Positions 20,139-34,203 of a stretch of 64,000 nucleotides of DNA are shown one piece after another (the first letter of the stretch is position 1; each line of letters opens with the position of its first letter). Source of the stretch: Clostridia bacterium (GTDB taxonomy: Bacteria > Bacillota > Clostridia > TANB77 > UBA1234); NCBI GenBank assembly GCA_900765095.1, contig CAAFRB010000012.1:1199-65198 (forward strand), read 5' to 3'. The notes below the pieces were generated by a model. The model saw only the letters and a list, made by a program, of their open reading frames with translations. It did no database searches and was not told the DNA's origin. Both the position numbers and the translations under genes were made by a program.

Positions 20139-21350
20139 CTAATTTTTAGCTTTAAAATTATATATTGGTCTTATTATTTTTTTGATTTCTACTGTATCTT
20201 GTATATTATCTATTATTTCTTGCATAGGCTTGTAAACAAACGGAGCTTCATCTATTGTTTCTATTGCAACTGATGTTGTATATATGCCTTCCATAGATTT
20301 TTTAAATTCTTCTAACGTAAATGTTTCTTTTGCTTTTATTCTTGACATTATTCTTCCTGCTCCATGTGGTGCTGAGAAATTCCAATCTTCATTTCCTTTA
20401 CCTATTGCAATAATACTTCCATCTTTCATATTTATTGGTATTAATACTTTTTCTCCTTTTCTAGCTGATATTGCTCCTTTACGAACTATATTATCTTTAA
20501 ATGAAATATAATTATGAACTGTTTCAAACATTATCCACTCAAATTTTTCATATTCTTCTTTATTAAAATAATTTTTTATAATTTCATGTGCTATATTAAC
20601 TCTGTTGCAGCACGCGTATTCTTGACATATTTGCATATCGTGTAAATACATTTCCCTATATTTGCCTTCTAAATAACACAAATTTTTTGGCAAATTGGGT
20701 TTATTATTTTTATATTCATTTTCTACATTTTTTAATGCACTTTGTATTTCTGACTTCTTTCCTTGCTCTTTATATGTTTTTATTATTTCTTCTTTTCTTT
20801 GATACATTTTTTCCTTATCAGAGCATAATTCTATAGCTAAATTTTGATAATACTCTGCAACCTGCTTTCCCATATTTCTTGAACCTGTATGTATTACTAA
20901 ATACTTATTATTTTCATCATCAATATCTATTTCTATAAAGTGATTTCCACCGCCTAATGTTCCTATTGATCTATTAAACTTTTCTGTTTCTTCAAGCTTA
21001 CTTAAACAATACAAATCATTTATTTTATCAAAATCACATAATTTATGTTCTCTTATATTTCTTCCAGCAGGTATAAATTTATTTACTATACTGTCTAATC
21101 TTTCCAAATTCAAATCAATATTTCCTAGTTCTATACATAGCATTCCACAGCCTATATCTACACCAACGATATTAGGTATAACTTTATTTCCTAAATCTGC
21201 TGTAAAACCTATTACACATCCCTTTCCCGCGTGAACATCAGGCATTATCCTTACTTTACAGTCTTTAAAAGATTCTTGCTCTAATAATTCAGATATCTGT
21301 TCTACAGCCTCATCTTCAATATTGTTAGTAAATATCTTTAAATCTTTCAT
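20139..21350 (-). CDS. rtcB: RtcB-family RNA 3'-phosphate ligase (phage-encoded)
   Basis: RtcB metal-binding motifs RIMPDVHAGKGCVIGF, VGVDIGCGM and HTGSRNMGKQVAEYY are in the expected order. The 403-aa length is consistent with compact RtcB proteins. Confidence 0.75.
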   Translation of the reverse strand: MKDLKIFTNNIEDEAVEQISELLEQESFKDCKVRIMPDVHAGKGCVIGFTADLGNKVIPNIVGVDIGCGMLCIELGNIDLNLERLDSIVNKFIPAGRNIREHKLCDFDKINDLYCLSKLEETEKFNRSIGTLGGGNHFIEIDIDDENNKYLVIHTGSRNMGKQVAEYYQNLAIELCSDKEKMYQRKEEIIKTYKEQGKKSEIQSALKNVENEYKNNKPNLPKNLCYLEGKYREMYLHDMQICQEYACCNRVNIAHEIIKNYFNKEEYEKFEWIMFETVHNYISFKDNIVRKGAISARKGEKVLIPINMKDGSIIAIGKGNEDWNFSAPHGAGRIMSRIKAKETFTLEEFKKSMEGIYTTSVAIETIDEAPFVYKPMQEIIDNIQDTVEIKKIIRPIYNFKAKN

Positions 21351-29747: not shown

Positions 29748-29883
29748 GTTAACTTGATAATCATAGTTTAATTAACTTTAAGTTATTTGTCAATATATTT
29801 TTGCAAAATAATATTAACTTTCTGTTAAAGCGTTCTCGCTGTAAGAAAAAATTATTTACAGAGTTAACTTATTGTTATATAAT
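29748..29883. promoter_or_regulatory. Divergent switch region: four TTAACTT repeats and a plus-strand promoter TTTACA-17-TATAAT (29855-29883) for the CI-like repressor; TTGACA (complement of 29788-29793) for the minus-strand early operon
   Basis: Sequence reading of the -35/-10 hexamers with 17-bp spacing and repeated TTAACTT elements. Confidence 0.55.
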
Positions 29884-29901
29884 GTTAATCGAGGTGAAAA
29901 A

Positions 29902-30495
29902 ATGAACCGTTTAAAAGAATTACGCGAAAAAAAAGAATTACTTCAAAGTGATGTTGCAAAGTTCTTAGGTATATCCAGTCCAGCTTATAGTTATTATGAG
30001 GCTAATAAAAGAAATATGCCTGCTGAAACCGCAATAAAACTATCCAAATTCTTCAATGTTTCTGTTGATTACTTATTGGGAGTAGATACGACGAATAAAA
30101 GGCTATTACCAGTTCTAGGTACCGTAAAAGCTGGCTATAATTACTTAGCACAAGAAAACGTAATTGATTATATAGACCCATCTATGAATATCACTGACCC
30201 CGAGAACTATTTTGGTCTTATCGTCAAAGGCGATAGCATGGCTCCTCTATTCGATGAGGGCGATTATTTAATAGTACATAAATTGGATGGAGAATTTAAT
30301 ACAAATGATATAGGTATAGTCTTAATTAACGGAGATGAAGCTACAATCAAAAAGGTAGTAAAAACAGACACAGGTATCGAACTGCATGCTTTTAATCCTT
30401 ATTATCCAGTTAAAAAATTTACTTATGAGGAAATGGAAAAATTGCCAGTTAAGGTTGTTGGAGTTGTAGTTAGACAAATTAGGAATTGGAAGTAG
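29902..30495 (+). CDS. CI-like phage repressor (XRE HTH + S24 LexA-like peptidase domain)
   Basis: N-terminal HTH LLQSDVAKFLGISSPAYSYYE and C-terminal S24 motifs GDSMAPLFDEGDYLIV ... IKKV. Confidence 0.85.
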   Translation: MNRLKELREKKELLQSDVAKFLGISSPAYSYYEANKRNMPAETAIKLSKFFNVSVDYLLGVDTTNKRLLPVLGTVKAGYNYLAQENVIDYIDPSMNITDPENYFGLIVKGDSMAPLFDEGDYLIVHKLDGEFNTNDIGIVLINGDEATIKKVVKTDTGIELHAFNPYYPVKKFTYEEMEKLPVKVVGVVVRQIRNWK

Positions 30496-30505
30496 GTGTA
30501 TTCAA

Positions 30506-31069
30506 ATGGAAAGAAAAATTTATTGTAAAAAATGTGGTTCAGAATTAGATGTCAATAAAAAATGTACTAAATGTGGAAAACAATATTTCAAATTTAATTT
30601 ACGAGTATTTCTCTTAATATTTTTTATTATTTTGCTGATTTCAATCGTTTGTTTTGAAACATATTATATTTATATTCATCAACAAGATGTAAAAAAATTA
30701 GAAAACAATTTTGCCACTCAAACAGAAAATCTAGAAAAAGAAAAGGACGAAACGTTAAAAACTTTACAAAAATATATTCAATATGGACTAGATACTTGTG
30801 ATGAATTACTTTTTTGGCATGACAACGCAGTAATAGTTTCTAATAATGCTACAAAAAAATATCATAATTATGGTTGTGAAGATTTAATGTTAAATAGTTT
30901 TTGGATATATAATACTAAAGCTGCTGAAGAAAAAGGATACACAATGTGCAAAAAATGTTACGACAAAGAACAAAATTCATCATCTAGCTCTCTTATTCCT
31001 TTAGGATTAGCCATAGACAAGATGAAATACTTAAATAATTCCGATAAAGGAGATATATCGTATGAATAA
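30506..31069 (+). CDS. Membrane protein with N-terminal zinc ribbon (CKKCGSEL...CTKCG), one TM helix and a Cys-containing C-terminal domain; prophage cargo gene
   Basis: Motifs read directly; lies between cI and int. Confidence 0.5.
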   Translation: MERKIYCKKCGSELDVNKKCTKCGKQYFKFNLRVFLLIFFIILLISIVCFETYYIYIHQQDVKKLENNFATQTENLEKEKDETLKTLQKYIQYGLDTCDELLFWHDNAVIVSNNATKKYHNYGCEDLMLNSFWIYNTKAAEEKGYTMCKKCYDKEQNSSSSSLIPLGLAIDKMKYLNNSDKGDISYE

Positions 31070-31367
31070 AAATCCGAAAGAAAAAGCGGATGATTTTTTT
31101 ATAGGTCTTGGAGCACTGGCTATAATTATTATTCCGGCTTTTTTGTTTAATGACTACCAAAAAGTAAAGAAAATAGAAAAATTAGAAAGTGCATATTATA
31201 AAATGGAAGATAAAATTTTGGAAATGTCAGATTATAATGATAACATATTTAAAAAGACAAAAGCAAATGAAACATATGATTTCTACAATTTTGATAATTT
31301 TGAAAGAGTTTTATTCGAGTACGAAGATACATTATTAGAATTAACACAACCTAATAAAAGTGATTAG
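31062..31367 (+). CDS. Small membrane protein (101 aa), prophage cargo gene
   Basis: TM segment LGALAIIIIPAFLF; start overlaps the preceding gene. Confidence 0.4.
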   Translation: MNKNPKEKADDFFIGLGALAIIIIPAFLFNDYQKVKKIEKLESAYYKMEDKILEMSDYNDNIFKKTKANETYDFYNFDNFERVLFEYEDTLLELTQPNKSD

Positions 31368-31462
31368 TAATTCTATTTAAAAATTTCAATTTTAAAATAA
31401 TTAATTTTATTATAAAAGAGGTTATAATATGTCATAAAATTATAATTCTGAAAGGAATAAAT

Positions 31463-32494
31463 ATGGAAGAAAATAAAAATTTAACAAATTCTGGAATTGA
31501 TAGGCAAAATATGCTTAATAACACTATTGCTTTAACTGCAATTCAGAACGAAATTCATATTCCAGGAACAATGTTTGAAAATGAATATAAATTTACTAAA
31601 AAACAAATAGCTGATTTCTATGAGGTTGATGAAAGAACTATTGATAGATATGTTGAACAGTTCAATGCTGAATTGTCAAAAAATGGATATGAAATACTGA
31701 GAGGAAAAAAACTTAAAGATTTTATAGCTTTATACAATTCTAAAGTCGACGACATTAATGTCGTCGACATACCAAAAACCGTTCCAGCTCTAAGTATTTT
31801 CAATTTTAAAGCTTTTTTAAATTTAGGAATGCTGTTGACAGACAGCGAGAAAGCAAAGATGATTAGAGCTTTAATACTAGACATAGTTATTGATGTAATA
31901 AATAAAAAAACTGGGGGAAATACTAAATATATCAATCAAAGAGATGAGGATTTTATAGATTCGGCTTTTAACGAAGAAAATTATCGTAAAGAATTTACAA
32001 AAGCTTTAAATAACTATGTTGTACCAGGCAAATCAAAATTCTCAATATATACAAATAAAATATATGTTAGTATTTTTAAGGAAAACGCTGCAGAATATAG
32101 AAAAATATTAAATTTACAAAAAAATGATAAAACAAGAGATACTTTTTACGCAGAAATACTTGATGTCATTGCATCCTATGAGATTGGTTTAGCAAGCGAA
32201 CTGCAAAAAGCATTTAATATAAAAGGCTCACCATTAGAATATACAGAAGTGGATGAAATATTCAAAAATTTTGAAAATCAAGCTTTGTGGATCCCAACTA
32301 TAAAAAAAGCCCGTACTAAAATGGCAAGTAGAGACTTAGCTTTTAGGGATGCACTACACGAAAAGCTTATGCATTATTTGGAGCCACTTGAAAAAGAAGA
32401 ATTTGAAAGATTTTTAGGCGAAAGAAGTAAAGATTTATCAGAACGTCTAAGTGAAGCACAAGATGTATTAAAACGTTTAAAGGAGCGTGAATAA
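31463..32494 (+). CDS. RhuM-family-like protein (putative DNA-binding partner of Doc)
   Basis: N-terminal KilA-N/HTH-like segment YKFTKKQIADFYEVDERTIDRYVEQF; ~340 aa, typical of RhuM-family proteins; immediately upstream of and coupled to a Doc/Fic gene. Confidence 0.45.
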   Translation: MEENKNLTNSGIDRQNMLNNTIALTAIQNEIHIPGTMFENEYKFTKKQIADFYEVDERTIDRYVEQFNAELSKNGYEILRGKKLKDFIALYNSKVDDINVVDIPKTVPALSIFNFKAFLNLGMLLTDSEKAKMIRALILDIVIDVINKKTGGNTKYINQRDEDFIDSAFNEENYRKEFTKALNNYVVPGKSKFSIYTNKIYVSIFKENAAEYRKILNLQKNDKTRDTFYAEILDVIASYEIGLASELQKAFNIKGSPLEYTEVDEIFKNFENQALWIPTIKKARTKMASRDLAFRDALHEKLMHYLEPLEKEEFERFLGERSKDLSERLSEAQDVLKRLKERE

Positions 32495-32496
32495 CT

Positions 32497-32931
32497 GTGA
32501 TTATTTACTTTCCTAAAGAACAAATTAAAGAAATTCACCAAAAAACAATAGAATTTAGTGGTGGCGGTAATACAGGAGTATTAGATATTGGTAAAGTTGA
32601 ATCTGTTTTAGAGCACATTCAAAATGATGATTACTATCCAACTTTTATAGACAAATTGACTCATTTATTTTTTTCAATTTGCAAATTTCACGCTTTCGCA
32701 GATGGTAATAAGAGATTAGCTATAACATTGAGTTTAAATTTTATTTTAATTAATGGTTATTTATCTGTTTCACAGTGCTTTATGAGAGAAACGGAAAATA
32801 TTAGTTATTATGTAGCAGCCGGCAATATTGATAAAGAGTTACTTCATGAAATTCTAGAGGCTATTATATATGACAACTGGGAAGAAAATGAAGAACTAAA
32901 ATTAAGATATCTTAACGCAATAAACAAATAA
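32497..32931 (+). CDS. doc: Doc (death-on-curing) / Fic-family toxin
   Basis: Fic/Doc motif HAFADGNKRLAITL. GTG start 2 nt after the upstream stop; RBS AAGGAGCG. Confidence 0.75.
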   Translation: MIIYFPKEQIKEIHQKTIEFSGGGNTGVLDIGKVESVLEHIQNDDYYPTFIDKLTHLFFSICKFHAFADGNKRLAITLSLNFILINGYLSVSQCFMRETENISYYVAAGNIDKELLHEILEAIIYDNWEENEELKLRYLNAINK

Positions 32932-33084
32932 AAAGATAACATATCAACTTGGCGGAAGGCATGTTATCTCTTCTCTATTCACAAATGATAGCTCACTTGT
33001 AAGATGTTTATATTTTAAACTATTTTTTTACCTCTTACAAGTGGAACAAATGTTTATATTTTAACACTTAAGGAGGTATTCTTT

Positions 33085-34203
33085 ATGGCTAAACGAAATT
33101 ATAATGGTGAAGGTTCTGTTTATTACCACCAAAAACTACAGAGGTGGGTTGGGCAGTTCACAGATCCTTTCACTCACAAAAGAAAATCTATATATGATAA
33201 AGATGAAAAGGTACTTAGGAAAAAACTGCGTAATGCAATTAGAGATGCGGAAAATGGCAAATTTGTTGAAAAATCCAAAGACACTATACCACAAATTGCC
33301 GAAAAAGTAATTGAACATAAACATCAAGCTAACATTACCAGTTCATCTTCTTACCTTAGAAGCTTAGGTACTCTTGCAATCATCCAAAAATCAGACTTAA
33401 CAGATATTCCTATTCAAAATATAACTAAAAACGATTTGCAGGACTTCTTTTACGGTATTAAAAATTATTCAAACTCTTACATATCAAAAATATTTCAACT
33501 AGTTAAACTTACTTTTGAAGAAGCTATTAAAGATGAATTGATAGTGAAAAACCCCATGGTATATGTTATAAAACCTAAATCCAACAAACAAGATAAAAAA
33601 GTAGAAGCCCTTACCCTAGAACAACATCAACTCTTTGTCAGATCGCTCGAAAATGAATTTTACAAAAATATATTTCTTATAGCAATTAACACTGGTATGA
33701 GATGCGGGGAAATCTTAGCTTTGCAGCCTAATGATATTGACTTTGAAAAGAACATTATCAAAGTTAATAAAACAATAACCAGAAACGACTTTGACAGCTT
33801 CACTCTTAAAGAAGGTGGTAAAACGTATGCCAGCACACGTGAAATTCCTTTTGATAACGATTTAAAGAGCGCTCTTATAAACTCTATATCTAATATGCAA
33901 AAAAACGAATTTGGACTAATATTTTCTCTAAACGGCAAGATAATACGTCCATCTACGCTTAATATTGTCTTTAAAAGAATATGTAAAAACCTAAAGTTCG
34001 AAGGTAGCTATCACTTTCATATGCTGAGACACACATTTGCCACGCGTTGTATCGAATCAGGTATGCCTGCACACGTACTTCAAAAACTTTTAGGTCATAC
34101 AGATGTATCTATTACCATCAATACGTATACTTCAATATTTGACAAATATAAAAAAGAAGAATTTGAAAAATTCCTGGAATACAAAAGAATAAATAATTTA
34201 TAA
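33085..34203 (+). CDS. int: Tyrosine site-specific integrase (phage integrase family)
   Basis: C-terminal catalytic region HFHMLRHTFATRCIESGMPAHVLQKLLGHTDVSITINTYTSI (R..H-x-x-R...Y); RBS AAGGAGG. Confidence 0.9.
   Translation: MAKRNYNGEGSVYYHQKLQRWVGQFTDPFTHKRKSIYDKDEKVLRKKLRNAIRDAENGKFVEKSKDTIPQIAEKVIEHKHQANITSSSSYLRSLGTLAIIQKSDLTDIPIQNITKNDLQDFFYGIKNYSNSYISKIFQLVKLTFEEAIKDELIVKNPMVYVIKPKSNKQDKKVEALTLEQHQLFVRSLENEFYKNIFLIAINTGMRCGEILALQPNDIDFEKNIIKVNKTITRNDFDSFTLKEGGKTYASTREIPFDNDLKSALINSISNMQKNEFGLIFSLNGKIIRPSTLNIVFKRICKNLKFEGSYHFHMLRHTFATRCIESGMPAHVLQKLLGHTDVSITINTYTSIFDKYKKEEFEKFLEYKRINNL

What the first reader, a model, noticed from the sequence alone, without database searches (positions are those of the whole stretch)
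31463..32931. RhuM-like protein translationally coupled to a Doc/Fic toxin as prophage cargo: candidate toxin-antitoxin or abortive-infection module
The Doc gene (Fic motif HAFADGNKRLA) starts with GTG two nt after the stop of a 343-aa RhuM-like protein with an N-terminal KilA-N/HTH-like segment. There is no small Phd-type antitoxin. Doc toxins phosphorylate EF-Tu and arrest translation. A large DNA-binding-like partner in place of Phd suggests a sensor/regulator-toxin pair, and the cI-int hotspot suggests anti-phage or addiction function. RhuM-family proteins are functionally uncharacterised.
Basis: partly seen in the sequence, partly recalled or inferred. Interest (0 to 1): 0.65.

Follow-up and report, generated by a model that had tools for sequence, protein, structure and literature searches.

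The report
Mobile Doc toxin cassette with KilA-N-type partner
A Doc-type toxin gene and a large, uncharacterised DNA-binding-like partner gene form a strictly conserved, promoter-less two-gene cassette that rides inside restriction-modification operons and next to prophage integrases in many bacterial phyla; it is a likely but untested toxin-antitoxin or anti-phage module, and the partner gene carries a conserved palindrome of unknown function.

Summary
A 343-aa ORF (31463..32494) is followed two nt later by a GTG-started 144-aa Doc gene (32497..32931) carrying the Doc motif HAFADGNKR. No Phd-like ORF is present.

The "RhuM-like" label fails: there is no PF13310 hit, and profile comparison with RhuM proteins gives 1% probability. 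The partner belongs to a tight family with no Pfam model.

The pairing is essentially obligate: 79 of 80 genome loci and 42 of 44 viral loci have Doc immediately downstream, and the three exceptions have no DNA left. Gaps are -8 to +2 nt in most pairs.

The cassette usually lacks its own promoter. It sits between mod/hsdM and res/hsdR/hsdS genes of type III and type I R-M systems, or just upstream of prophage and satellite integrases. A 98% identical copy lies in a second, unrelated lysogeny module.

PADLOC lists A and Doc as components of the untested three-gene candidate PDC-M59. The two-gene form seen here appears to have been recorded and rejected in that curation.

Unexpectedly, gene A contains a conserved, covarying 11-17 bp palindrome (31745-31768). 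Its function is unknown.

The parts
31449..33093 (+). Mobile A-Doc cassette as delimited by comparison with a second prophage
   Evidence: blastn shows 98.2% identity over 1645 bp to L147. In L147 the cI, the integrase and the flanks are otherwise unrelated. Homology starts 14 nt before the ATG of A and ends 9 nt into int.
31463..32494 (+). Gene A, 343 aa: PADLOC PDC-M59A family, labelled 'DNA-binding protein' by NCBI, no Pfam family
   Evidence: PDC-M59A E 7.7e-105. More than 7000 homologues of about 340 aa at 56-68% identity across many phyla. AF2 model has pLDDT 69.
31502..31885 (+). N-terminal KilA-N/Bro-N-like (antirepressor-type) DNA-binding domain, about aa 14-141
   Evidence: tblastn matches to N-termini of phage antirepressors and KilAC proteins at E 3e-8 to 4e-6. 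BFVD Foldseek hits are dominated by KilA-N, Bro-N and antirepressor proteins, E 2.5e-7 to 1e-2. Weak HTH_29 match at aa 45-70. A distant homologue, CST152, has a weak ORF6N hit.
31745..31768 (.). Perfect 24-nt palindrome GTCGACGACATT|AATGTCGTCGAC inside gene A (codons 95-102), conserved as a covarying hairpin or palindrome across the family
   Evidence: It is the longest perfect inverted repeat in the 64-kb window. RNA fold gives -16.7 kcal/mol, z -5.96. In 113 homologues 80.8% of cells pair, against 61% when shuffled and 33-45% when slid; covariation score 0.443 against 0.126, 0 of 500 shuffles as high. RNAalifold recovers it. No Rfam match.
32270..32491 (+). C-terminal helical tail of A (aa 270-343), the inferred Doc-binding/neutralising element
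   Evidence: Highly conserved (KMASRDLAFRDALH, ERFLGEKS, KRLKERE). Low pLDDT at 290-322. Absent from the 240-266-aa CST152-like relatives, none of which has a Doc gene within 3 kb (0 of 10). The role is inferred, not shown.
32480..32485 (+). Shine-Dalgarno-like AAGGAG for Doc, inside the 3' end of A
   Evidence: Read from the sequence. The A-stop to Doc-start distance is -8 to +2 nt in 72 of 76 gene pairs measured.
32497..32931 (+). Doc-family Fic-fold toxin gene, 144 aa, GTG start
   Evidence: Pfam Fic 2.6e-12; TIGR01550 1.6e-12; phrog_577 'Doc-like toxin' 2.2e-16; PDC-M59B 1.5e-35; PDB Doc chains at 5e-4 to 1e-2.
32689..32715 (+). Doc active-site motif H-A-F-A-D-G-N-K-R
   Evidence: Read from the sequence. 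The motif HxFx(D/N)GNKR is kept in 64 of 65 homologues.
29872..30495 (+). Context: cI/LexA-like repressor (HTH_3 + Peptidase_S24), start of the + strand lysogeny gene string
33085..34203 (+). Context: tyrosine integrase at the prophage end, next to a host U32 peptidase gene

Best explanation
This is a self-contained two-gene toxin-antitoxin-type module that moves horizontally as a promoter-less cassette. Doc is the effector. It is a Fic-fold kinase expected, by analogy with P1 Doc, to phosphorylate EF-Tu and stop translation. The 343-aa protein A is made first from the same mRNA, with Doc translation coupled to it. A is inferred to hold Doc inactive by direct binding, most likely through its conserved C-terminal helical tail. 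The N-terminal KilA-N/Bro-N-like domain and the helical middle of A would act as the regulatory or sensing part, binding nucleic acid or a phage factor. When A is lost, titrated or inactivated, free Doc arrests the cell. That could follow phage infection, shut-off of the host operon or loss of the element. The outcome would be abortive infection or superinfection exclusion for the lysogen or R-M-bearing cell, or addiction to the carrier element. Expression is borrowed from the operon it sits in: the cI-to-int lysogeny string here, and mod/hsd operons elsewhere.

Shown: anatomy, family assignments, strict pairing and coupling, intact catalytic motif, genomic contexts and cassette mobility.

Inferred: toxicity, EF-Tu as the target, neutralisation by A, the role of the tail, the trigger and any anti-phage effect.
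For: - Doc identity and intact motif.
- Gene order with the partner upstream, and a -8 to +2 nt junction in 72 of 76 gene pairs measured.
- Doc follows A directly in 79 of 80 species loci and 42 of 44 viral loci; the three exceptions have no DNA left downstream.
- Pairwise identities of A and Doc are correlated, r = 0.78, Mantel p = 0.001.
- Flanking genes are dominated by R-M components: ResIII 18, N6_N4_Mtase 14, RE_endonuc 9, Methylase_S 6, N6_Mtase 5, HSDR_N 5.
- Resolved examples: hsdR-hsdM-A-Doc-x-hsdS, mod-A-Doc-res, and A-Doc-integrase with either a tyrosine or a serine recombinase.
- A Streptococcus satellite phage has repressor-A-Doc-integrase.
- PADLOC HMMs PDC-M59A and PDC-M59B match at 7.7e-105 and 1.5e-35. 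PDCs are untested candidates found by 'guilt-by-embedding' (10.1101/2024.01.29.577857).
- An almost identical cassette sits in a second, different lysogeny module.
- Relatives of A that lack the last 75 or so residues have no Doc nearby, 0 of 10.
- Precedent: non-Phd antitoxins neutralise Doc through C-terminal helices, as in PanA-Doc (PMC10440598).
Against: - No experiment exists for this family.
- The tail shows no detectable similarity to Phd-C.
- Inter-protein covariation did not single out the tail: 13 of the top 100 pairs against 20% of the variable columns.
- No complex model could be made.
- No natural A-Doc fusion was found.
- Unlike classical type II TA loci, the cassette usually has no room for its own autoregulated promoter. 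The upstream same-strand gap is <=20 nt in 25 of 57 loci and <=60 nt in 37 of 57, so the DNA-binding domain is probably not a standard autorepressor.
- Both proteins are unusually conserved (>50% identity across phyla), which is atypical of fast-evolving immunity genes.
- Payne et al. appear to have rejected the two-gene cassette as a defence candidate.
Confidence: 0.55

Rival explanations
1. The pair is a regulatory kinase-substrate pair, not a toxin-antitoxin. Doc modifies A (or A directs Doc to a DNA-bound target), and this switches transcription of the genes in which the cassette is embedded: res/hsdR in R-M operons, int or lysogeny genes in prophages. The logic would be the same as in the CapK-CapS pair that controls immune operons.
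For: - A has a DNA-binding-type domain.
- The cassette lies directly upstream of res/hsdR/hsdS or int and is co-transcribed with them.
- High conservation fits a housekeeping-like regulator.
- A conserved palindrome inside A could be its binding site.
- Precedent for kinase plus repressor pairs upstream of immune operons: PMC13373217.
Against: - The downstream gene varies widely (type I, type III, AIPR, tyrosine or serine integrases, or nothing on the same strand), so there is no common regulated target.
- No extra copies of the palindrome half-site occur in the loci beyond chance: 13 of 60 loci against about 10 expected (my estimate).
- Characterised stand-alone Doc proteins are growth-arresting toxins.
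Confidence: 0.15
2. It is a plain addiction (post-segregational killing) module. It stabilises whatever element carries it (R-M operon, prophage, satellite, integrative element) and has no role in sensing or excluding phages.
For: - P1 phd-doc is the archetypal addiction module.
- The cassette sits in mobile contexts: integrases, TraG, satellites.
- The curators of the PDC set appear to have rejected the two-gene form.
Against: - The dominant context is embedding inside R-M operons in chromosomes of many phyla. This is the signature used to discover validated defence genes such as PrrC and the HEC systems.
- A 340-aa multi-domain partner is more than neutralisation alone needs.
Confidence: 0.2
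3. A is a co-effector or targeting subunit rather than an inhibitor. The A-Doc complex is the active species, and A tethers Doc to DNA or to a phage nucleoprotein target such as a topoisomerase-like or replication protein.
For: - Other Fic toxins (FicT, Fic-1) target DNA gyrase and topoisomerase IV (PMC7479194, abstract seen).
- A has a nucleic-acid-binding fold.
- Foldseek's best PDB matches are the DNA-damage-response DNA-binding protein DdrC, but the match is weak: E 1e-3, TM 0.28/0.42.
Against: - The motif is the Doc kinase type (NKR), not the AMPylating GNGR type.
- The gene order and coupling are those of antitoxin-toxin pairs.
- The DdrC match is weak.
Confidence: 0.1

Closest known systems
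Phd-Doc of phage P1 and chromosomal Phd-Doc modules (type II TA)
   Same: Doc-family Fic-fold toxin with the HxFx(D/N)(A/G)NKR motif. The partner gene is upstream and translationally coupled. The module is carried by a prophage.
   Different: The partner is 343 aa, not about 73 aa, with no PhdYeFM domain and no detectable Phd-C similarity. The cassette usually has no promoter or operator of its own.
Composite Doc modules with non-Phd antitoxins (PanA-Doc, PMC10440598; MazE-Doc TasAB, PMC1626090)
   Same: Doc is paired with an unrelated, modular antitoxin. In PanA-Doc a C-terminal helical element neutralises Doc and the globular domain is proposed to be sensory.
   Different: A is not Panacea/DUF4065 or MazE (no Pfam hit). 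It has a KilA-N/Bro-N-like domain. Neutralisation is untested.
PADLOC phage defence candidate PDC-M59 (Payne et al., bioRxiv 10.1101/2024.01.29.577857)
   Same: A and Doc match the PDC-M59A and PDC-M59B HMMs over their full length. Both are found embedded in R-M systems.
   Different: PDC-M59 is a three-gene cassette, and the 165-aa signal-peptide protein M59C is absent from the window. M59C was found in only 4 of the loci fetched. The two-gene form (414 instances in their table, mapped by my inference) was rejected in their curation. All PDCs are untested.
PrrC/RloC anticodon nucleases embedded in type I R-M loci
   Same: A suicide-type effector inserted between hsd genes and co-transcribed with them. 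Aravind and colleagues noted DOC toxins in such mobile R-M neighbourhoods (PMC3710099).
   Different: The effector is different: a protein kinase, not an RNase. The cassette also works outside R-M loci (prophage and satellite int-proximal sites), so it cannot depend on one particular R-M partner.
RhuM (PF13310) and RhuM-Fic/DOC fusions
   Same: Uncharacterised proteins that are associated or fused with DOC domains in R-M and island contexts (PMC3710099).
   Different: No sequence or profile similarity between A and RhuM. A real RhuM fragment is a separate neighbouring gene in L081-L088.
Phage KilA-N / Bro-N / ORF6N antirepressor N-terminal domains
   Same: The N-terminal third of A matches them by fold and weakly by sequence.
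   Different: A has no KilA-C/ANT C-terminal domain. Instead it has a unique helical region and is always paired with Doc.

Membership tests
Doc (death-on-curing) subfamily of Fic proteins | Fic fold / PF02661 and TIGR01550 above the curated cut-offs | tested here: met
   PF02661 47.9 bits (cut-off 24); TIGR01550 47.6 bits (cut-off 38.65).
Doc (death-on-curing) subfamily of Fic proteins | Doc-type active-site motif HxFx(D/N)(A/G)NKR (Lys in place of the second Gly of the Fic motif) | tested here: met
   HAFADGNKR at aa 65-73, nt 32689-32715. Kept in 64 of 65 homologues.
Doc (death-on-curing) subfamily of Fic proteins | Phosphorylates EF-Tu and arrests translation; toxic when unopposed | not testable with these tools
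   Needs expression and biochemical assays.
Phd-Doc type II TA family | Small Phd/YefM-type antitoxin encoded upstream | tested here: not met
   The upstream gene is 343 aa with no PhdYeFM hit. The tail profile against P1 Phd gives hhalign probability 0.2%.
Type II toxin-antitoxin module (generic) | Bicistronic, partner upstream, overlapping or abutting genes, co-inherited | tested here: met
   2-nt gap here; -8 to +2 nt in 72 of 76 gene pairs measured; all 121 loci with room have Doc; r = 0.78 between identity matrices.
Type II toxin-antitoxin module (generic) | Own autoregulated promoter/operator upstream of the antitoxin gene | tested here: not met
   Cassette homology starts 14 nt before the ATG. 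The upstream same-strand gap is <=20 nt in 25 of 57 loci.
Type II toxin-antitoxin module (generic) | Antitoxin binds and neutralises the toxin | not testable with these tools
Covariation was uninformative.
RhuM family (PF13310) | Match to the Virulence_RhuM profile or homology to RhuM proteins | tested here: not met
   No hit at E<=10. hhalign probability 0.1% and 1.0%. Caveat: the RhuM proteins aligned (106-240 aa, mostly partial) may not cover the N-terminal region of full-length RhuM.
PADLOC PDC-M59 | Components A and B | tested here: met
   PDC-M59A 7.7e-105 (aa 5-342); PDC-M59B 1.5e-35 (aa 2-144).
PADLOC PDC-M59 | Component C (165-aa protein directly after Doc) | tested here: not met
   The integrase follows Doc. 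tblastn of M59C against the window gave no hit better than E 0.11. M59C was identified in L118 and L132.
KilA-N / Bro-N / ORF6N superfamily (N-terminal domain of A) | Profile or fold match to the domain | tested here: inconclusive
   No Pfam hit in A itself. tblastn to antirepressor N-termini at 3e-8 to 4e-6. A weak ORF6N hit (1.4e-4, below cut-off) in the homologue CST152. Consistent Foldseek hits, but from a model with pLDDT 69 and low TM.
Anti-phage defence system | Genomic association with known defence genes | tested here: met
   Embedded in type I and type III R-M operons; next to AIPR in L133.
Anti-phage defence system | Reduces phage infection | not testable with these tools
   No published test was found.

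The most novel reading that the evidence does not exclude
The cassette is a new kind of Doc-based abortive-infection switch. A KilA-N-type nucleic-acid-binding protein, rather than a labile peptide antitoxin, gates the kinase. The conserved, covarying palindrome inside the A gene would be part of the mechanism. It could be a cis element (an mRNA-processing or roadblock site) that sets the A:Doc ratio, or a structured nucleic-acid ligand bound by A itself. Because the cassette has no promoter and is embedded between mod and res, it would act as a second-line guard that fires when the host R-M operon or the lysogeny operon is shut down by a phage.
Probability: 0.2. Interest if true: 0.8.

Novelty: new variant of a known kind. 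Interest (0 to 1): 0.55.

Why it matters
Doc is a textbook toxin, but only with small Phd-like, MazE-like or PanA partners. This partner family is very large: more than 7000 clusters at 90% identity, in at least 593 species' genomes. It has no Pfam model, no solved structure and no experimental study found here.

If A gates Doc, it would give a tractable example of a sensor-type antitoxin built on a viral KilA-N fold. It would also be a second example, after PrrC, of a suicide effector nested in R-M operons.

The strict conservation, the promoter-less mobility and the intragenic palindrome give concrete handles for experiments. The result also corrects database labels ('RhuM-like', 'CiaB protein', 'DNA-binding protein'). 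Finally, it suggests that the common two-gene form, apparently rejected in the PADLOC curation, deserves testing.

Tried and rejected
- RhuM homology: rejected.
- Phd-C-like tail by sequence: no signal in a PDB profile search or in hhalign against P1 Phd. The region is short, so this is not decisive.
- Natural A-Doc fusions to use as a folding vehicle: none among the top hits.
- MI/APC covariation between A and Doc (98 pairs, Neff 50): dominated by high-entropy columns, with no enrichment in the tail. The only hint is A E310 with Doc A68, rank 7.
- Operator upstream of A: the AT-rich inverted repeats are at chance level and are not shared with the second prophage.
- Extra copies of the palindrome half-site in the loci: 13 of 60 loci against about 10 expected by my estimate.
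- Strand or molecule of the palindrome: the numbers of G.U and A.C mismatches (27 and 23, summed by hand) and the sense and antisense MFE (both -23.5) are equal, so an RNA hairpin cannot be told from a DNA palindrome. It has no T-run, so it is not an intrinsic terminator. No Rfam family matches.
- (S/T)xxxE(G/N) Fic-inhibition motif: S203-IFK-E-N fits, but about 0.3 such matches are expected by chance in 343 aa (my estimate) and position +5 varies. Dismissed.
- DdrC similarity: too weak to build on.
- PDC-M59C: found only in a Bacteroidota-like subgroup and carries a signal peptide. It is not part of the core.
Full report
**1. What is at the coordinates**

- The window has a 343-aa ORF at 31463..32494 (here called A) and a 144-aa ORF at 32497..32931 that starts with GTG.
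- The junction reads TAA-CT-GTG, and an AAGGAG lies 11 nt upstream of the GTG, inside the end of A.
- The second ORF is a Doc-family protein:
  - Pfam Fic E 2.6e-12;
  - TIGR01550 DOC_P1 47.6 bits, against a cut-off of 38.65;
  - phrog_577 'Doc-like toxin';
  - weak matches to solved Doc chains.
- Its motif HAFADGNKR (nt 32689-32715) is the Doc kinase variant of the Fic motif.
- No Phd-like small ORF is present.
- The + strand gene string is a cI/LexA-like S24 repressor, two small membrane ORFs, A, Doc and a tyrosine integrase, followed by a host U32 peptidase gene.
- To the left lie portal, large terminase, major head, RecT and replication genes.

**2. What protein A is**

*It is not RhuM.*
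- PF13310 is not hit even at E<=10, and NCBIfam gives nothing.
- hhalign of a 23-member A alignment gives 0.1% probability against a genuine RhuM fragment and 1% against 25 RhuM proteins.
- In one gut lineage a RhuM gene fragment lies next to A as a separate gene.

*It belongs to a large but very tight family.*
- More than 7000 clusters at 90% identity, nearly all about 340 aa, 56-68% identical to the window protein.
- Members occur in Clostridia, Bacilli, Bacteroidota, Proteobacteria, Planctomycetota, Verrucomicrobiota, Spirochaetia, Cloacimonadota and others.
- At 50% clustering only about 20 full-length representatives remain.
- Sources call it 'DNA-binding protein' or, in RAST-type annotation, 'CiaB protein'.

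*Structure and domains.*
- The AlphaFold model is of medium confidence (pLDDT 69).
- It shows a beta-alpha N-terminal domain (about aa 35-125) followed by an all-helical body, with low confidence at 95-106 and 290-322.
- The N-terminal third matches N-termini of phage antirepressors and KilAC proteins by tblastn (E 3e-8 to 4e-6).
- Against viral structure predictions the hits are dominated by KilA-N, Bro-N, antirepressor and 'repressor domain' proteins (E 2.5e-7 to 1e-2).
- A distant homologue, phage c-st CST152, has a sub-threshold ORF6N hit.
- In the PDB the best Foldseek matches are the DNA-binding protein DdrC, but the match is weak.

**3. Is the pairing conserved?**

- Yes, essentially without exception.
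- Among the 80 best species loci from 593 hits, 79 have a Doc homologue (54-69% identity) starting right after A. The remaining locus has only 86 bp left.
- Among 44 viral contigs with A at 38-60% identity, 42 have Doc. The other two end 3 nt after A.
- The distance from the A stop to the Doc start is -8 to +2 nt in 72 of the 76 gene pairs measured.
- Pairwise identities of A and Doc are correlated (r = 0.78, Mantel p = 0.001), and the Doc motif is intact in 64 of 65.

**4. Where the cassette lives**

*Neighbouring genes.*
- Pfam scans of 93 neighbouring proteins gave mostly R-M components: ResIII 18, N6_N4_Mtase 14, RE_endonuc 9, Methylase_S 6, N6_Mtase 5, HSDR_N 5, Eco57I 4. Integrases made up 5.
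- PADLOC models agree.

*Resolved examples.*
- hsdR-hsdM-A-Doc-(165 aa)-hsdS in L118.
- hsdR-hsdM-A-Doc-AIPR in L133.
- Type III mod-A-Doc-res in L128.
- A-Doc-tyrosine integrase in L098 and L100.
- A-Doc-serine recombinase in L094.
- A Streptococcus satellite phage, Javan742, has XRE repressor-A-Doc-integrase, the same layout as the window.

*Expression is borrowed.*
- The upstream gene is on the same strand in 57 of 66 loci.
- The gap to it is <=20 nt in 25 loci and <=60 nt in 37.
- So the cassette is normally read from its host operon.

*The cassette moves as a unit.*
- The exact A protein occurs on 12 metagenome contigs read.
- In one of them (L147) the repressor, integrase and flanks differ from the window.
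- A 1645-bp block, window 31449-33093, is nevertheless 98.2% identical. It starts 14 nt before the ATG of A and ends 9 nt into int.
- The cassette is therefore a discrete, exchangeable, promoter-less unit.

**5. What is already known**

- PADLOC HMMs PDC-M59A and PDC-M59B match A and Doc over their full length.
- PDCs are 145 untested candidates proposed by 'guilt-by-embedding' in BREX, DISARM and type I R-M systems (10.1101/2024.01.29.577857).
- Their Table S8 lists FAM_01085>>FAM_00079 with 414 instances marked 'Reject'. It lists FAM_01085>>FAM_00079>>FAM_00939 with 46 instances, assigned as PDC-M59.
- Equating these two families with A and Doc is my inference from the HMM names.
- The third component, M59C, is a 165-aa protein with a signal peptide and no Pfam match. 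It was found in only 4 of the loci fetched and is absent from the window.
- Anantharaman et al. 2013 noted DOC toxins in mobile R-M neighbourhoods and RhuM-DOC fusions (PMC3710099).
- I found no experimental work on this family.

**6. Mechanism**

The best-supported reading is a toxin-antitoxin-type module in which Doc is the effector and A is its co-translated inhibitor and regulator.

*For this reading.*
- The gene order and coupling, the obligate pairing, the intact catalytic motif and the defence and mobile-element contexts.
- Precedent exists for Doc being neutralised by C-terminal helices of unrelated modular antitoxins (PanA-Doc, PMC10440598).
- A comparative clue points to the last 75 or so residues of A. 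Shorter relatives of 240-266 aa (CST152-like) align to aa 4-269 and have no Doc within 3 kb in 10 of 10 loci.
- The tail is among the most conserved parts of A and is partly low-confidence in the monomer model, as expected for a segment that folds on its partner.

*Against, or not shown.*
- The tail has no similarity to Phd.
- Covariation was uninformative.
- A complex could not be modelled.
- The absence of a cassette-borne promoter means A is probably not a classical autorepressor.

*Rivals that remain open.* A kinase-substrate regulatory pair (as in CapK-CapS, PMC13373217), pure addiction, and a targeting subunit.

**7. An unexpected element inside gene A**

*In the window.*
- The longest perfect inverted repeat in the 64-kb window is a 24-nt palindrome at 31745-31768, GTCGACGACATT|AATGTCGTCGAC.
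- It encodes aa 95-102, in the poorly conserved, low-confidence linker after the N-terminal domain.
- It folds at -16.7 kcal/mol as RNA (z -5.96) and -11.6 kcal/mol as DNA.

*Across the family.*
- In 115 distinct A genes the best perfect inverted repeat is >=9 bp in 67, and up to 17 bp.
- It maps to aa 90-99 in 79 of them.
- Codon-shuffled controls average a best stem of 6.7 bp. Doc genes reach only 4-9 bp.

*Covariation, on a 113-sequence alignment anchored on the protein.*
- 80.8% of cells pair, against 61% after shuffling (0 of 500 shuffles as high) and 33-45% when the partner is slid.
- The covariation score is 0.443 against 0.126.
- The core pairs switch between Watson-Crick types, for example UA 62 / GC 26 / CG 12; AU 50 / CG 33; CG 62 / AU 47.
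- RNAalifold finds the same helix.

*What it is not, and what cannot be told.*
- No Rfam family matches.
- There is no T-run after it, so it is not an intrinsic terminator.
- G.U and A.C mismatches are equally frequent, and sense and antisense fold equally well. An mRNA hairpin therefore cannot be separated from a DNA palindrome or cruciform, or from an operator for a dimer.
- Extra half-site copies in the loci are at chance level.
- The Doc-less CST152-like genes have a shorter palindrome (AGGTTCA-N-TGAACCT) at the same codon position. The element therefore belongs to the A-type gene, not to the Doc pairing as such.
- Its function is unexplained. Candidates are an mRNA-processing or stability site that sets the A:Doc ratio, a binding site or structured ligand for A, or a transcriptional roadblock.

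**8. Verdict**

- The 'RhuM-like' label is wrong, while the KilA-N-like N-terminus stands.
- The toxin-antitoxin or abortive-infection interpretation is plausible and agrees with an existing but untested database candidate.
- New relative to the literature and databases searched here:
  - the demonstration of obligate coupling across phyla;
  - the promoter-less cassette behaviour and its two recurrent homes (R-M operons and int-proximal sites of prophages and satellites);
  - the Doc-less relatives that lack the tail;
  - the covarying intragenic palindrome.
- I rate it a new variant of a known kind, of moderate interest. The interest would rise if A proves to be a sensor or the palindrome proves to be functional.

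Noticed in passing
window 31745-31768 (and the same codon position in 113 homologues, alignment A9): A perfect 24-nt palindrome inside gene A. It is conserved across the family as an 11-17 bp helix with compensatory changes. It matches no Rfam family, shows no strand bias, and is also present in shorter form in the Doc-less relatives.
   Followed up: yes
window 20139..21350 (-): The prophage encodes an RtcB-like RNA/tRNA ligase (phrog_1075, E 2.9e-131). This could repair tRNA cut by anticodon-nuclease defences, and it sits in the same phage that carries a translation-targeting toxin.
   Followed up: no
window 30506..31069 and 31062..31367 (+): Two small overlapping ORFs lie between cI and gene A. 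One is 187 aa with an N-terminal CxxC...CxxC zinc-ribbon-like motif and a hydrophobic segment, and has a weak PADLOC PDC-M67B hit (9e-5). The other is 101 aa with a hydrophobic segment. Both are absent from the second prophage that carries the same A-Doc cassette, so they may be further cargo genes.
   Followed up: partly
window 32931-33064: Structured DNA lies between Doc and int, inside the block shared with the other prophage. There is an inverted repeat at 32931-32942/32961-32972 just after the Doc stop, a 14-nt inverted repeat at 32994-33007/33030-33043, and two copies of ATGTTTATATTTTAA at 33004-33018 and 33050-33064. These may be a terminator or int control or arm-type sites.
   Followed up: no
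L081-L088 (gut metagenome contigs), about 7516-7929 in L081: A 137-aa fragment of a genuine RhuM (PF13310) gene lies immediately upstream of an A-Doc pair in an integrative element that has a tyrosine integrase and TraG. RhuM and A-Doc therefore co-occur as separate genes.
   Followed up: partly
L118, L119, L125, L132 (viral contigs), e.g. L118:6489-6983: The third gene of PADLOC PDC-M59 (M59C) is a 165-aa protein with a signal peptide and no Pfam match. It occurs only in a small subgroup, between Doc and hsdS, so it looks like lineage-specific cargo rather than a core component.
   Followed up: partly
L133:6493-8262: In one type I R-M locus an AIPR (abortive infection) gene follows A-Doc directly. 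This means two embedded suicide-type genes lie in one hsd operon.
   Followed up: no
one search list (P0151, P0156, P0169, P0172 and others): Many metagenomic gene calls for this family begin exactly at profile position 121, just before the invariant Met123 downstream of the palindrome. This could be an artefact of contigs breaking at the palindrome, or a hint of an internal start.
   Followed up: no
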